DNA of 64,000 bases from a virus (taxonomy: Duplodnaviria > Heunggongvirae > Uroviricota > Caudoviricetes), in IMG/VR virus record IMGVR_UViG_2537561979_000003; one strand, given 5' to 3'. A program made the translations under genes and the position numbers. Shown piece after piece: positions 5,924 to 9,708 of this stretch (position 1 is the stretch's first letter; each line of letters begins with the position of its first letter). The notes beneath the pieces are model-generated. The model ran no database searches. It saw only the letters and a list, made by a program, of their open reading frames with translations, and was not told where the DNA came from.

Positions 5924-6124
5924 TTATCTGCTGCCCGACATTATCTGTTTAAGCACAACCATTTCCTGACGGCATAACACAGCAATAGCGGTCCTGGCAC
6001 CAATTTGCTTACTAACCAGGTATTGCTTTATCTTGCGGCGACTCACGCCATCAAGAAGCATCTTTAACGCTTCACGGGACAATTTGTTGTATTTGCGTGC
6101 CATTAATCTACTCCGCAGAACCAT
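5924..6124 (-). CDS. Small basic protein (about 57-66 aa)
   Basis: ORF overlapping doc 3' end by 17 nt; weak. Confidence 0.3.
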
Positions 6125-6488
6125 ACAATCTACGTAACGTGGCGGCGACAGAAGATACAGATATCTCGCCAGTCGCAGCGCCTACAGTAAGGTCTGCCAG
6201 TTCAGGTGAATCAAATACCTGCACCCCGTTACGGCGTAGAAATAGCAGCGCACTGTTTAGCGCGGTACGCTTATTGGCATCATTGAATATATGCCCTCTC
6301 GCTGTAGCCACCAGGTAGGTGGCGGAGACTTCGAAAAGGTCGGTGATCTCTTCGTAGGCAACTCTGGCCTGAACTCTCCCGATAATGGCCTCTGCCCTAC
6401 CCGGATCTGACATTCCCGGCAGGCCGCCGTAGCGGTTTATATTCGCATCATGAAGCGCAATAAGTTCTTCCGGTGATATATGCCTCAT
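6108..6488 (-). CDS. doc: Doc toxin (Fic-fold kinase, death-on-curing), 126 aa
   Basis: Fic motif [11 protein letters not shown]; 126 aa; start overlaps phd stop. Confidence 0.9.
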
Positions 6489-6709
6489 TATCGGTTAACC
6501 AGTTCCTTGTTGGTGGAGTCCAGGGTGTCAAACAGGGATGCAAATTCAGCATCCAGCGCCGCTTTTTTGTAGGCTTCGAAAGTAGCCTTGCTGACAATTA
6601 CTGCTGGCTCACGGCCTCTGCGGGTGATTTCAACCTCTTCCCCGGCTTCAACATTGTTGAGCACTTCAGAAAGGTTGCCGCGCGCGGTACGGAAGTTAAT
6701 GGATTGCAT
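6488..6709 (-). CDS. phd: Phd antitoxin, 73 aa (ORF-track start at 6715 is probably 2 codons too long)
   Basis: [49 protein letters not shown].. matches the P1 Phd sequence as I recall it; upstream of doc. Confidence 0.9.
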
Positions 6710-6717
6710 AAACACCT

Positions 6718-6742
6718 CGTGTACTCGTTATGTGTACACAAT
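6718..6742 (-). promoter_or_regulatory. phd-doc operator: two GTGTAC(AC) palindromic repeats
   Basis: cGTGTACtcgttatGTGTACACaat immediately upstream of phd. Confidence 0.5.
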
Positions 6743-6781
6743 TATAAACTTCACAGGCATAAAGCACCAGCACTTTGCAGC

Positions 6782-7171
6782 TTAAATCACCGGACAATCA
6801 TCAAATTCCCCACTTCGGGCATCATTAATGACATGAGTGATCACACCAAACACAGCATTACTCCCCGTGCATCCATCGTCATCCACTGGTAACGCCTCTT
6901 TCTTCCCGGTGCTTAAATCCTCCAGGTGCTGGCGCGGATACTTTCGGTATCTCTTTATGCGATATTCACCCTCCATAGCGCACACAAGCAGCGAACCATC
7001 AACTGGAGTAAGCGAAGAATCAACCACCAGCAAAGCACCCTGCAATATTCCCTCACGGTGATGGCTATCAGCTGCCCGCATGAAGTAGGTTGCTGATGGA
7101 TGTCTAATTATCTGCTGATCAAGAGAAATTCGGCTTTCAACATAATCCGCCGCAGGAGAAGGGAAACCCAT
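6782..7171 (-). CDS. humD: UmuD'-like S24 peptidase-fold protein (P1 HumD-like), 129 aa
   Basis: Starts MGFPSPAADYVE.., i.e. at the residues following the UmuD self-cleavage site; Ser and Lys of the dyad present; no umuC nearby. Confidence 0.8.
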   Translation of the reverse strand: MGFPSPAADYVESRISLDQQIIRHPSATYFMRAADSHHREGILQGALLVVDSSLTPVDGSLLVCAMEGEYRIKRYRKYPRQHLEDLSTGKKEALPVDDDGCTGSNAVFGVITHVINDARSGEFDDCPVI

Positions 7172-7201
7172 AGCGTTTTACCTCAAAAATACTGTTTATC
7201 T

Positions 7202-7217
7202 ATACAGCATACATTAA
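7202..7217. promoter_or_regulatory. LexA (SOS) box CTGTTTATCTATACAG
   Basis: CTG-N10-CAG palindrome 31 bp upstream of the humD start, in a divergent intergenic region. Confidence 0.6.
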
Positions 7218-7522
7218 AGAAGCACCTTTGGTGCAAACGCGTTATGTACATCAACCACCGCTGATGATTTTTGTGCGCTTTGCTACTATTCATCACCGCG
7301 GGGTCAGCGTAACCTCGTTGCCAATCAGTTAATAAGGAATTAGCTATGCCTAATCGCATTCCTCTCGATCCTGTATTGCCCAAAAATTTTGACTGCACTC
7401 CTAACGAGAAACGCTCTAAAGCTCAGCTGGACGCCTAGTGGGACCATCCATATGGGGTTACACAACCTGACGGGAAAATTGTAGTTTATTGTCTGAATGG
7501 TGGGGCGTGGGACCGTCCATCC

Positions 7523-7930
7523 GTGCTTTGTTTGGCAGATAACTATGATGAAGCCTGTGAACTTGCCGAAAGACAGCAGGCAAGCTGGGTAAAAACACGG
7601 TCTGAACCGACATTCATGTTTTCAAAAGAACCGCCATTTATACTGGCGAGGATGCCGCAGCGACCGGATCATCAACAAGAAATTGTTGCTGAATTTTCCT
7701 CAAGGGATGAGATGAATCTCTTCTCATTAAAGCAGGAAGAAAGGGATCGCGTCGAAGTGTCTCCAACTCTCGACCACAACCGGATGAACCTGGCCCAGCT
7801 CGCCTGGTACAGCAAAGAATTAGAGATGTCTATTGCCCGGCTTGAAAACGAAAAAGCCGCTATCCAAGTCCAGCACGAAGTAGTTCTGAACCGGATTAGA
7901 GAAATGCAAAACGATAACAGGGGATTTTGA
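7523..7930 (+). CDS. Hypothetical protein (start uncertain; GTG at 7523 or internal ATG)
   Basis: ORF in AT-rich island divergent from humD; stop abuts start of next gene (TGAATG). Confidence 0.4.
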   Translation: MLCLADNYDEACELAERQQASWVKTRSEPTFMFSKEPPFILARMPQRPDHQQEIVAEFSSRDEMNLFSLKQEERDRVEVSPTLDHNRMNLAQLAWYSKELEMSIARLENEKAAIQVQHEVVLNRIREMQNDNRGF

Positions 7931-8287
7931 ATGGCTAAAATCGAGTACCATCGCGATCGCGGTAATTACCTGGAAATATACGATCATGAATCTCTTAACG
8001 ATATCAACGATGCGTTATATGAATACTGTGAAAAAACGAGCATCACAGATGCACCTGATGCATTTGTCGAGCTGCCGGTATATCTCCGCGACATCTATGC
8101 AATACGAACACCGCCCGTATCGGTGATTCACATTGGCTATGTCCGCCTGTCCATCGAAGAAGATGAAGATCGTTATATCGTGCGCCACTATACATTGGAC
8201 AGAAAAGAACTTCCTAATGAATGGAACATGAGTAATTTCTACAACGGTGAATATGGCTTAAAATCCGCTAATAATTTACGGTCATAA
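7931..8287 (+). CDS. Hypothetical protein, 118 aa
   Basis: Translationally coupled to 7523..7930; AT-rich codon usage. Confidence 0.45.
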   Translation: MAKIEYHRDRGNYLEIYDHESLNDINDALYEYCEKTSITDAPDAFVELPVYLRDIYAIRTPPVSVIHIGYVRLSIEEDEDRYIVRHYTLDRKELPNEWNMSNFYNGEYGLKSANNLRS

Positions 8288-8413
8288 TCTATACAGGCAT
8301 GTATAACAACAACGAGTCTATTAGCTGTCAACAACGTTATTTCCTCAAATAAGAAAAAGCAGAAAACAAATTATTTAAGGTCACAAATTGTGGCCTTGAT
8401 GGAGGAGGGAGGC

Positions 8414-8644
8414 TTATTGGCTATGGCTAAAAATCAAATTAGACACTTCATGTTGCTGTAGCTCATCAAGATCCGAGGCCACAAAACCTTTTCCGAAAAA
8501 CTTCACAAGTAACTCACTAGCCGCATCATTGTCACCTATTACACGAAAGTCATACGGCAACGTCGCAAGTTGACGATGTAATCCTGCTGAGAAAGTCGAA
8601 TCTAACAGCGCCCAGAATTCCCACCGCAGGATAATACTCGCCTC
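8414..8644 (-). pseudogene. Start-less gene relic (76 in-frame codons ending ..FFGKGFVASDLDELQQHEVSNLIFSHSQ*)
   Basis: Protein-like open frame with no ATG/GTG/TTG near its 5' end, bounded upstream by TAA; in AT-rich spacer. Confidence 0.3.
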
Positions 8645-9132
8645 TTAATACTGTATATATGTTGTTACGATATGTTTTTCTGTCTCTAAAAAAAGATGTT
8701 TGAAGGGGATAAAAATATACAATTCCAACAAACGTTATTTTTAACAATTTTTTTCTTTGCGTTGACTTTCCCGGACACCTTGTCTGACCGAAGGTGCGCG
8801 AAAGCCACTTTTTCCTTCCTGAGTTATCCACAAAGTTATGCACTTGCAAGAGGGCCATTTTCTACATATTGTGGTGGCTAACAGATGAAATGAATGTAGA
8901 TTAATTGAAGATAAGGAGAAAATTTGAGATGCAATCATGACGTTAATAGATAGGGTCTGCATTACAGACCCCACCCGCATCAAGGAATTAGCCGTTCCCT
9001 GATGTTTTTCCGAAAACATGTGCCGTAAGCTCACGTTAACGACTTTCATTCACCGAATCCAACTATATAGGGGTTGGGTTTCTACGTCAACGTGAGCAAG
9101 TGCACCTTTACATTTGACAAGGAACCACCTGA

Positions 9133-9270
9133 ATGAACGCTTTTTTTCAGTTCCTGAGTGCATTTTTAGATGCGCCTATTATTAGCCAGATTCTGGCTAT
9201 TATCCTCATCATCGTTTTGATTTTGCTTTTAAGGTCAGTAAAAAATGGAATTATGCACTGGCTTACTTAA
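9133..9270 (+). CDS. 45-aa hydrophobic peptide (single TM helix)
   Basis: AAGGA RBS 8 nt upstream of ATG; MNAFFQFLSAFLDAPIISQILAIILIIVLILLLRSVKNGIMHWLT. Confidence 0.3.
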   Translation: MNAFFQFLSAFLDAPIISQILAIILIIVLILLLRSVKNGIMHWLT

Positions 9271-9345
9271 TGTTTCAGTGAAACATTAAAATCTCCTTGA
9301 TGTGGAAACAATCATTTTCTGTATGTGCTGGTGGGCACCTGTAGT

Positions 9346-9708
9346 TCAGCTTTCGTTGGCATTTAACTTCGTCTTTGCTTTCTCCACCAGCAACTTCCAG
9401 ATGCCTATTTCATTAGCAGCCGCCTTGATGGCGGCATAAAAAGCATCTTGCTGATCGTAACGCTGGATCTGTTTTTTCAGTTTTGCCTCCACCAATTTAA
9501 TTTCATTACGTGCTTTCTGAAGCCGCATCACCGCCCGGTTACGTCTGTTCTTGTATAGCGTGTTAATCTCTGACAATTGCTTTAATTTACCAGCCTGACT
9601 GCGGATTATCGCCTCCCTGGCTTCTGCCGTGCGTCTCATCTGATCTCTTAAGAGTTCACCGTTTTCGATAATTCTTTCAAGGTGTTTGATGTGATCTGCA
9701 ACTCTCAT
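9346..9708 (-). CDS. Hypothetical coiled-coil protein, 120 aa
   Basis: ORF overlaps next gene by 4 nt. Confidence 0.5.
   Translation of the reverse strand: MRVADHIKHLERIIENGELLRDQMRRTAEAREAIIRSQAGKLKQLSEINTLYKNRRNRAVMRLQKARNEIKLVEAKLKKQIQRYDQQDAFYAAIKAAANEIGIWKLLVEKAKTKLNANES

What the first reader, a model, noticed from the sequence alone, without database searches (positions are those of the whole stretch)
7190..8300. SOS-box-controlled divergent cassette opposite humD
A canonical LexA box (7202..7217) lies between humD and a divergently oriented, AT-rich, translationally coupled two-gene cassette (7523..7930 and 7931..8287), with a possible 30-aa leader ORF at 7346..7438. The box could regulate both directions, so the cassette would be induced by DNA damage together with the UmuD'-like gene. 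Neither protein resembles the theta-subunit homolog I would expect at this position in P1.
Basis: partly seen in the sequence, partly recalled or inferred. Interest (0 to 1): 0.6.

Follow-up and report, generated by a model that had tools for sequence, protein, structure and literature searches.

The report
Known P1/P7 humD–lxr SOS region
This is the already annotated humD–lxr control region of a P7-type P1-family phage-plasmid: a real LexA operator sits next to humD, the "leader ORF plus gene 1" is the known gene lxr cut by a single amber codon, and gene 2 is P7's upf93.6, so the locus is ordinary although neither protein has a known function.

Summary
The window is a P1-family phage-plasmid of the P7/SJ46 type (98% identity). 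A strong LexA box exists, but at 7190-7209 (core 7192-7207), 10 bp left of the reported position. It is the only match in 64 kb, with none expected by chance. It lies 20-21 nt upstream of humD in eight P1-like elements whatever gene lies beyond it, and it overlaps a conserved humD promoter -10, so it is primarily the humD operator.

The "30-aa leader ORF" (7346-7438) and "gene 1" (7523-7930) are one reading frame. Together they are lxr (P1) / upf94.2 (P7), interrupted by TGG->TAG at codon 31. Gene 2 (7931-8287) is P7 upf93.6, which abuts the lxr stop. The P1 GenBank record already annotates "LexA binding site in the regulatory region of lxr and humD".

LexA control of lxr is not shown. The box is 136 nt from the lxr start, no good promoter overlaps it, and diverged lxr(-upf93.6) loci lack both humD and the box.

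Both proteins are acidic orphans with no Pfam, NCBIfam, PADLOC, PDB or fold match. The amber allele circulates naturally: 30 PLSDB plasmids against 136 intact, and 310 contigs.

Verdict: real features, already known, low interest.

The parts
6108..6715 (-). doc (6108-6488) and phd (6488-6715), the P1-type addiction module downstream of humD. Context only.
   Evidence: ORFs. Positions correspond to phd and doc in the P7 and P1 records.
6782..7171 (-). humD, a UmuD'-like protein of 129 aa
   Evidence: Pfam Peptidase_S24, E 6.7e-9. Annotated humD in P7, P1 and SJ46.
7190..7209 (.). LexA operator TACTGTTTATCTATACAGCA (core CTGT-N8-ACAG at 7192-7207)
   Evidence: unique in the window, 0 expected by chance. 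Conserved 20-21 nt from the humD ATG in 8 elements, with invariant CTGT/ACAG and a variable spacer. Annotated as a LexA protein_bind feature in the P1 and P7 records.
7206..7236 (-). Inferred humD promoter: -35 TTGCAC (7236-7231), -10 TATGCT (7211-7206; TATACT in most relatives). The -10 overlaps the right end of the LexA box.
   Evidence: In the humD-sense alignment of 8 elements, the -10 and a -35-like hexamer (TTCACA in D6 and RCS47) persist even where the sequence further upstream is unrelated. Weak by PWM score (4.7). Inference, not mapped.
7281..7289 (+). Best lxr-strand promoter-like element, an extended -10 TGcTACTAT, 72 nt to the right of the LexA box
   Evidence: PWM scan: score 8.0, against a mean best score of 7.55 (sd 1.77) for 320-bp stretches of the window, so not above background. 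Conserved in P1, P7, p28Eco12 and L030. Speculative.
7346..7930 (+). lxr (P1) / upf94.2 (P7), 194 codons, here a nonsense allele
   Evidence: Same frame throughout. Corresponds to P7 upf94.2 and P1 lxr. phrog_6164, E 3.5e-135. AGGA Shine-Dalgarno 8 nt before the ATG.
7436..7438 (+). Amber codon TAG replacing Trp31 (TGG) of lxr
   Evidence: Alignment with P7 and P1. W31 is at least 90% conserved in 93 homologs. Apart from this base the window's lxr is identical to the intact lxr of p28Eco12 (dN = dS = 0). The same truncated 135-aa gene call is annotated in pEC21Z048-103K.
7931..8287 (+). upf93.6 (P7), 118 aa, function unknown; its start codon abuts the lxr stop
   Evidence: phrog_5797, E 3.8e-77. 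The exact protein is seen on at least 1000 contigs.
8375..8399 (.). 11-bp hairpin between the lxr-upf93.6 unit and the convergent Toprim remnant; a possible bidirectional terminator
   Evidence: RNA fold and the sequence. It has no clear T-run on the + strand, so its role as a terminator is an inference.
8414..8617 (-). 3' remnant (last ~66 codons) of a Toprim-domain gene that is intact in p28Eco12 and PhiR41_1
   Evidence: BLASTP 88% identity to residues 109-174 of the 174-aa p28Eco12 protein. Annotations.

Best explanation
This is the humD-lxr divergent control region of a P7-type P1-family phage-plasmid.

(1) Shown: one high-quality LexA operator lies at 7190-7209, 20 nt upstream of the humD start codon.

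(2) Inferred: it overlaps the -10 (TATGCT, 7211-7206) and the start site of a conserved humD promoter. Host LexA would therefore occlude RNA polymerase, and humD, the UmuD'-like mutagenesis factor, would be derepressed when RecA* drives LexA self-cleavage.

(3) Shown: on the other strand, lxr (7346-7930) and upf93.6 (7931-8287) are a co-directional, abutting gene pair that ends before a hairpin at 8375-8399.

(4) Shown: in this window lxr carries TGG->TAG at codon 31, inside the most conserved motif (DAWWDHPYG) of its N-terminal domain.

(5) Inferred: upf93.6 has lost upstream translation of lxr. It is therefore probably under-expressed, through loss of translational coupling and possibly Rho polarity.

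(6) Not shown: that LexA also controls lxr-upf93.6. I rate this at about one in three.

(7) Lxr is a roughly 130-aa alpha/beta domain found widely on plasmids, plus a C-terminal long helix (likely a coiled coil) seen only in the enterobacterial full-length, P1-like-element forms. Lxr and Upf93.6 are both acidic proteins of unknown biochemical function. lxr was scored non-essential in a P1 genome-wide CRISPRi essentiality screen.
For: Identity of the locus:
- 98% DNA identity to SJ46 and P7 over 6700-8500.
- One-to-one correspondence with the annotated P7 genes humD, LexA site, upf94.2 and upf93.6, and with the P1 genes humD, LexA site and lxr.
- PHROG matches with E 1e-77 to 1e-135.

Amber allele:
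- Searches show the single-base change.
- W31 is conserved in at least 90% of 93 homologs.
- The rest of the gene is identical to the intact allele.
- The same truncated CDS is annotated in pEC21Z048-103K.
- 30 PLSDB plasmids carry TAG and 136 carry TGG.
- The exact 135-aa product is seen on 310 contigs.

The operator belongs to humD:
- Unique site, 0 expected by chance.
- Fixed 20-21 nt spacing to humD in the window, P7, P1, two plasmids, D6, RCS47 and PhiR41_1, while the far-side neighbour changes: lxr, hot, or a Toprim gene.
- Conserved -10 TATACT/TATGCT and a -35-like hexamer right next to the box.

The genes are real:
- lxr dN/dS is 0.08 between P7 and a 69%-identical homolog. For upf93.6, dN is 0.32 with dS saturated.
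- The AF2 model of Lxr has pLDDT 88.9, with an N-terminal alpha/beta domain and a helix at 149-192.
- lxr was scored non-essential (NE) in the P1 genome-wide CRISPRi essentiality assay (PMC10695390).
Against: - No transcript or LexA-binding data exist for this element. The humD promoter I propose is weak by consensus: 3/6 and 4/6 hexamer matches, a 19-nt spacer, PWM score 4.7.
- My proposed promoter differs from the PhumD predicted by the P1 annotators, which lies about 480 bp upstream inside lxr.
- Reduced expression of upf93.6 is an inference only. It has its own GGGGA Shine-Dalgarno sequence.
- The wide spread of the amber allele could mean that a restart product or the downstream gene still matters.
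- The function of both proteins is unresolved. NCBI's name 'DNA-binding protein' for Lxr has no support here: pI 5.2 and no family or fold match.
Confidence: 0.85

Rival explanations
1. One reading: the single LexA box represses both divergent units. In that case lxr-upf93.6 is an SOS-induced operon co-induced with humD, as the single box shared by E. coli uvrA and ssb is (own knowledge).
For: - The box lies in the 174-bp humD-lxr intergenic region.
- The P1 record names lxr 'LexA regulated function' and places the site 'in the regulatory region of lxr and humD'.
- The whole intergenic region is 96% conserved even in an element whose Lxr is only 80% identical.
- A weak TTTACC-18-TATACA match overlaps the box on the lxr strand (score 6.4).
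Against: - The box is 136 nt from the lxr ATG.
- The overlapping -10 (TATACA) is not conserved in p28Eco12, which carries lxr and has CGTACA there.
- The best lxr-strand element lies 72 nt away from the box.
- The box stays with humD when lxr is absent (D6, RCS47, PhiR41_1).
- lxr homologs at 67-69% identity, with or without upf93.6, have a different upstream region with no humD and no LexA box.
- Distant N-domain homologs have no box either.
Confidence: 0.33
2. Lxr links SOS to the element's lifestyle, for example as an antirepressor-like or host-factor-binding protein analogous in logic to the LexA-controlled AntC of N15. Under this reading the common amber allele is an adaptive loss that stabilises plasmid carriage.
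For: - Position next to an SOS operator.
- Small acidic protein with a predicted long C-terminal helix that could mediate dimerisation.
- The nonsense allele is present in about 18% of lxr-bearing PLSDB plasmids across three genera.
- N15 provides a precedent for a LexA-regulated antirepressor in a phage-plasmid (PMC11652158).
Against: - No sequence relative of Lxr was found in N15-like phages.
- No fold similarity to any known antirepressor.
- LexA control is unproven.
- N-domain homologs sit in non-phage plasmids next to resolvase, repABC or trb genes.
- The spread of the amber allele may simply be hitch-hiking in a successful plasmid clone.
Confidence: 0.08
3. lxr-upf93.6 is a two-gene toxin-antitoxin or addiction-type module placed next to phd-doc.
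For: - Two small abutting genes on a plasmid.
- One distant Lxr-domain protein carries a PaaA2 antitoxin motif (E 6e-8).
Against: - lxr occurs without upf93.6 in P1, L030 and L033.
- upf93.6 occurs with an unrelated 320-aa partner in Salmonella plasmids.
- A nonsense mutation in the first gene is tolerated in 30 plasmids that keep upf93.6 intact.
- Both proteins are acidic.
- No PADLOC, Pfam or NCBIfam TA family match.
Confidence: 0.04
4. The 30-aa ORF 7346-7438 is a genuine regulatory leader peptide, and 7523-7930 is an independent gene.
For: It has a good Shine-Dalgarno sequence and an ATG. PGAP annotates the 135-aa CDS in pEC21Z048-103K.
Against: - Same frame as the downstream ORF; a single base separates it from the intact 194-aa gene.
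- The 30 residues are the conserved N-terminus of a family with 475 clusters.
- The GTG at 7523 has no ribosome-binding site. Its product would lack strands 1-3 of the domain.
Confidence: 0.02

Closest known systems
Bacteriophage P1 humD-lxr region (NC_005856: humD P1_gp103, LexA protein_bind site, lxr P1_gp102)
   Same: Same order and orientation: doc-phd-humD on one strand, then the LexA box 20-21 nt from humD, then divergent lxr. DNA is 95% identical over 7100-7880. The intergenic region is about 96% identical.
   Different: P1 has an intact lxr of 190 aa, followed by a convergent hot (theta homolog) with the late promoter LPhot. In the window, homology to P1 breaks inside the 3' end of lxr (about 7880) and resumes at 8794. 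The swapped segment carries upf93.6 and a Toprim-gene remnant instead of hot.
Phage P7 (AF503408) upf94.2-upf93.6 and Salmonella phage SJ46
   Same: Identical gene content and spacing: humD, LexA site, upf94.2 (= lxr, 194 aa), and upf93.6 (118 aa) abutting it. 98% DNA identity.
   Different: The window has the W31 amber in lxr and three base differences in the LexA box region. It lacks P7's IS903 insertion, so the target site at 8542-8550 is empty here.
IncY P1-like plasmids such as pEC21Z048-103K (NZ_CP101271)
   Same: 99.8% identical over 7172-8420, including the amber allele. PGAP calls the same 135-aa truncated CDS there.
   Different: That plasmid has an ISVsa5 insertion downstream.
E. 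coli SOS operators of umuDC type, and the divergent uvrA/ssb box (own knowledge of the LexA regulon)
   Same: A CTGT-N8-ACAG palindrome with an AT-rich spacer next to a UmuD-family gene and overlapping its promoter.
   Different: LexA binding, and control of the second (lxr) direction, have not been demonstrated for this element.

Membership tests
LexA (SOS) operator of Gammaproteobacteria | 16-bp palindrome CTGT-N8-ACAG with an AT-rich spacer, close to the 20-mer consensus TACTGTATATATATACAGTA | tested here: met
   17 of 20 matches at 7190-7209. Unique in the window, 0 expected by chance.
LexA (SOS) operator of Gammaproteobacteria | Position overlapping or adjacent to the promoter of the regulated gene | tested here: inconclusive
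   For humD: the box overlaps a conserved but weak -10/-35 pair. For lxr: no conserved promoter-like site overlaps the box. No transcription start data.
LexA (SOS) operator of Gammaproteobacteria | Half-sites conserved among relatives while the spacer varies | tested here: met
   CTGT and ACAG are invariant in 8 elements and there are 5 different spacers.
LexA (SOS) operator of Gammaproteobacteria | Binding by LexA and derepression on DNA damage | not testable with these tools
   Needs EMSA or footprinting and expression assays.
P1 Lxr / P7 Upf94.2 (phrog_6164) | Full-length sequence similarity to P1 Lxr and the same position, divergent from humD | tested here: met
   phrog_6164 E 3.5e-135. 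P7-type Lxr is 92.6% identical to P1 Lxr, and the window copy differs from an intact allele only by the stop codon. Syntenic.
P1 Lxr / P7 Upf94.2 (phrog_6164) | Intact open reading frame of 190-194 codons | tested here: not met
   TAG at codon 31. The window copy is a nonsense allele of the family gene.
P7 Upf93.6 (phrog_5797) | Sequence identity and position immediately downstream of upf94.2 | tested here: met
   99-100% identical to the P7, SJ46 and MH422554 proteins. phrog_5797 E 3.8e-77. Same abutting arrangement.
Hot / DNA polymerase III theta (PF06440) | Sequence similarity to P1 Hot or E. coli HolE | tested here: not met
   tblastn of P1 Hot against the whole window gives nothing below E 0.95. 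Pfam finds no theta domain in either ORF.
Type II toxin-antitoxin module | Obligate co-occurrence of the two genes and membership of known toxin or antitoxin families | tested here: not met
   The genes occur separately. No Pfam, NCBIfam or PADLOC hit. The first gene is knocked out in 30 plasmids.

The most novel reading that the evidence does not exclude
The Lxr N-terminal domain may define a new functional class of plasmid/phage-plasmid proteins. It has 475 clusters at 50% identity, no Pfam, PDB or fold relative, is acidic, and is under strong purifying selection. In P1-like elements this class would be wired to the SOS operator and would modulate the host DNA-damage response or the lysis-lysogeny decision. 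The W31-amber allele, found in about 18% of lxr-bearing PLSDB plasmids, would then be an adaptive inactivation that favours stable plasmid carriage.
Probability: 0.08. Interest if true: 0.5.

Novelty: already known. Interest (0 to 1): 0.15.

Why it matters
As found, it matters little. The LexA site, lxr/upf94.2 and upf93.6 have been in the P1 and P7 GenBank records since the genome papers, and this region is a recognised variable hot spot of P1-like phage-plasmids (PMC9603915, PMC6906374).

Three points have residual value:
- An annotation lesson: PGAP and a naive reader both turn an amber-interrupted lxr into a 135-aa 'hypothetical protein'.
- The name 'LexA regulated function' rests only on proximity. 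The comparative data here tie the operator to humD rather than to lxr.
- Lxr represents a sizeable orphan family on plasmids whose function is still open, and a natural knockout allele is available for testing it.

Tried and rejected
- Pfam, PHROGs, NCBIfam and PADLOC scans of Lxr and Upf93.6 gave only unnamed PHROGs and sub-threshold noise: PKK, DUF7491, DUF7588.
- PDB sequence and profile searches found nothing credible.
- The afdb50 library was unavailable.
- Rfam found nothing in 6400-9400.
- Consensus and PWM promoter scans found nothing above background in the intergenic region.
- Genomic context of distant Lxr-domain homologs showed no shared partner: a resolvase operon in Pseudomonas plasmids, a replication/recombination block in Klebsiella elements, repABC-trb in Bradyrhizobium. 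None had a LexA box.
- Pfam on fused family members gave only a weak Glyoxalase_8 N-terminal hit and one PaaA2 motif.
- The idea that Lxr is related to the LexA-controlled antirepressor of N15 found no support: no homolog in N15-like phages.
- Łobocka 2004 (P1 genome paper) and McLenigan 1999 (HumD paper) are not in the held library. Statements about what they say therefore rest on the GenBank annotation and on memory.

Full report
**What the window is**

Megablast of 6700-8500 against GenBank phages gives full-length matches at 98.0-98.1% to Salmonella phage SJ46 and phage P7. Three 'P1' records of the P7 type match at 97.7%. Classical P1 matches only the first 1181 bases, at 95.5%.

In the annotated P7 and P1 records the matching stretch reads: doc, phd and humD on one strand; a protein_bind feature 'LexA'; then, divergently, upf94.2 and upf93.6 in P7, or lxr followed by a convergent hot in P1. 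The P1 record labels the site 'LexA binding site in the regulatory region of lxr and humD' and labels lxr 'LexA regulated function'. The finding therefore re-discovers an annotated locus.

**Checking the observation**

- *LexA box.* It is real but lies at 7190-7209 (TACTGTTTATCTATACAGCA; core 7192-7207), ten bases left of the reported coordinates. It matches the 20-mer consensus at 17 of 20 positions. It is the only site in 64 kb within three mismatches, with none in 100 shuffles.
- *humD.* It occupies 6782-7171 on the minus strand and matches Peptidase_S24.
- *The two plus-strand ORFs.* They abut: TGA at 7928-7930, ATG at 7931.
- *The 'possible 30-aa leader ORF'.* 7346-7438 is in the same frame as 7523-7930 and is separated from it only by TAG at 7436-7438. 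P7 and P1 read TGG there. Leader plus 'gene 1' are one gene, lxr/upf94.2, with a Trp31 amber mutation. The GTG at 7523 is merely the first start codon after the stop and has no ribosome-binding site.
- *'AT-rich'.* This holds for upf93.6 (41.7% GC) and the downstream region (38.7%), but not for lxr (47.4% against a window mean of 47.9%).
- *hot.* It is absent from the whole window.

**The amber allele**

Trp31 lies in the motif DAWWDHPYG and is at least 90% conserved among 93 homologs. Apart from this one base, the window's lxr is identical to the intact lxr of plasmid p28Eco12 (dN = dS = 0). The mutation is therefore recent and the rest of the gene has not decayed.

It is not a sequencing oddity of this window:
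- Plasmid pEC21Z048-103K (99.8% identical) has the same allele, and PGAP annotates the same 135-aa 'hypothetical protein' there.
- An allele-specific 31-mer search finds 30 PLSDB plasmids with TAG (E. coli 17, Salmonella 11, Shigella 2) against 136 with TGG.
- The exact 135-aa product is recorded on 310 contigs.

A product restarting at 7523 would lack the first three strands of the predicted domain. Because lxr translation stops about 490 nt before upf93.6, coupling to upf93.6 is lost and polarity is possible. That is an inference.

**Whose operator is it?**

I compared eight P1-like elements: the window, P7, P1, two IncY plasmids, D6, RCS47 and PhiR41_1.

- The box keeps a 20-21 nt distance to the humD start.
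- CTGT and ACAG are invariant, while five different spacers occur.
- The gene on the far side changes: lxr; hot on the humD strand in D6 and RCS47; a Toprim gene in PhiR41_1.
- On the humD-sense strand, a -10 hexamer persists immediately upstream of and overlapping the box: TATACT in most elements, TATGCT in the window at 7211-7206. A -35-like hexamer also persists: TTGCAC at 7236-7231, or TTCACA in D6 and RCS47. Both persist even where the sequence further upstream is unrelated.

I therefore read box plus promoter as a humD-linked module, with LexA occluding the -10 and the start site. This promoter is weak by consensus and is not the distal PhumD predicted in the P1 record. It needs mapping.

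**Is lxr LexA-controlled?**

The only support is proximity and the published name. Evidence against:

- The box is 136 nt from the lxr ATG.
- Consensus and PWM scans find nothing above background. The best element is an extended -10, TGcTACTAT at 7281-7289, 72 nt from the box.
- The one weak candidate overlapping the box (TTTACC-18-TATACA) is not conserved in p28Eco12, which carries lxr.
- A divergent P1-like contig, L020, has the lxr (69% identity) and upf93.6 (58%) pair with no humD and no LexA box. It has a different upstream region carrying its own palindrome.
- Salmonella elements L033 and L034 have lxr (67% identity) without humD, and their lxr upstream region is the L020 type rather than the window's.

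I put dual control at about one in three.

**The proteins**

*Lxr.* AlphaFold2 models P7-type Lxr confidently (pLDDT 88.9). It has an N-terminal alpha/beta domain (strands 36-39, 45-50, 58-64; helix 67-86; strands 98-102, 112-117; helix 120-130), a linker, and a long helix at 149-192.

- The N-domain alone occurs as 130-143-aa proteins on plasmids of Klebsiella, Pseudomonas, Xanthomonas, Burkholderia and Bradyrhizobium.
- An exhaustive profile search finds 475 clusters at 50% identity. Many have a roughly 60-aa N-terminal helical extension.
- Contexts differ and show no common partner: an orf66-lxrN-resolvase operon in Pseudomonas plasmids, a replication/recombination block in Klebsiella elements, and repABC-trb in Bradyrhizobium. 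None has a LexA box.
- No Pfam, NCBIfam, PADLOC, PDB-sequence or fold match was obtained.
- NCBI's label 'DNA-binding protein' is unsupported, and the protein is acidic (pI 5.2).
- lxr is under purifying selection (dN/dS 0.08). It was scored non-essential in a P1 genome-wide CRISPRi essentiality screen (PMC10695390).

*Upf93.6.* It has only 18 homologs, all enterobacterial, and is acidic (pI 4.8). It could not be modelled reliably (pLDDT 58). In Salmonella plasmids it follows an unrelated 320-aa ORF. lxr also occurs without it. The pair is therefore not obligate, which, together with the tolerated lxr knockout, argues against a toxin-antitoxin module.

**Boundaries**

Relative to P1, homology runs 7100-7880 and resumes at 8794. 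The swapped segment carries the 3' end of lxr, upf93.6, a hairpin at 8375-8399 and the 3' third of a Toprim gene (8414-8617, minus strand), in place of P1's hot and LPhot. Relative to P7, the window lacks IS903. Published comparisons already list hot-lxr-humD as a variable hot spot (PMC9603915; PMC6906374).

**Verdict**

Novelty: already known. Interest: low. What remains of interest is a natural amber knockout of an orphan plasmid gene family, and the weak basis for the name 'LexA-regulated'.

Noticed in passing
window 7436-7438: The lxr W31-amber allele is common in nature. It is in 30 PLSDB plasmids (E. coli, Salmonella, Shigella) against 136 with TGG, and the truncated 135-aa product is on 310 contigs. 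PGAP annotates it as an ordinary 'hypothetical protein' rather than a pseudogene.
   Followed up: partly
window 8414-8617 (minus strand): 3' remnant (about 66 codons, 88% identical) of a 174-aa Toprim-domain gene that is intact in p28Eco12 and PhiR41_1. The 5' two-thirds are missing here.
   Followed up: partly
window 8542-8550: This is the empty target site of the IS903 copy present in phage P7. The window matches P7 on both sides of that insertion.
   Followed up: partly
window 8649-8668: TACTGTATATATGTTGTTAC: a perfect left half of the LexA consensus (12 of 12 bases) with no right half-site, in the AT-rich region downstream of the Toprim remnant.
   Followed up: no
window 30070-30085: Second exact CTGT-N8-ACAG match (CTGTCGCGGCTAACAG). 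It has a GC-rich spacer and sits just 3' of a 754-aa minus-strand ORF, about 80 nt upstream of a 119-aa plus-strand ORF. Probably chance (0.7 expected per window).
   Followed up: no
L003-L006 5790-7040 (Pseudomonas-type plasmids): The Lxr N-domain homolog (135 aa) sits in a tight orf66 - lxrN - serine resolvase operon (4-bp overlap with the resolvase gene), next to Fic/VbhA and RepA_C. The link to a multimer-resolution gene is unexplained.
   Followed up: partly
P0176, P0180, P0186, P0218 (residues 1-55); P0182 (residues 74-94): Many Lxr-domain proteins carry a conserved N-terminal helical module of about 55 aa (consensus ...AK..A....SH..ALe..Ar..GyaSW.eL), which gives a weak hit to the Glyoxalase_8 N-terminus. 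One protein has a PaaA2 antitoxin motif (E 6e-8) ahead of the domain.
   Followed up: partly
L020 3295-3320 and L033 (same sequence): In Salmonella-type P1-like elements the lxr upstream region is unrelated to the P1 one. It contains a perfect palindrome TTTGTTTGT-CAAC-ACAAACAAA that looks like an operator for a different regulator.
   Followed up: no
window 7172-7345 versus L030 2327-2500: The humD-lxr intergenic region is about 96% identical between the window and an element whose Lxr protein is only 80% identical. The regulatory region is thus more conserved than the coding sequence, either through mosaic recombination or through strong constraint.
   Followed up: no
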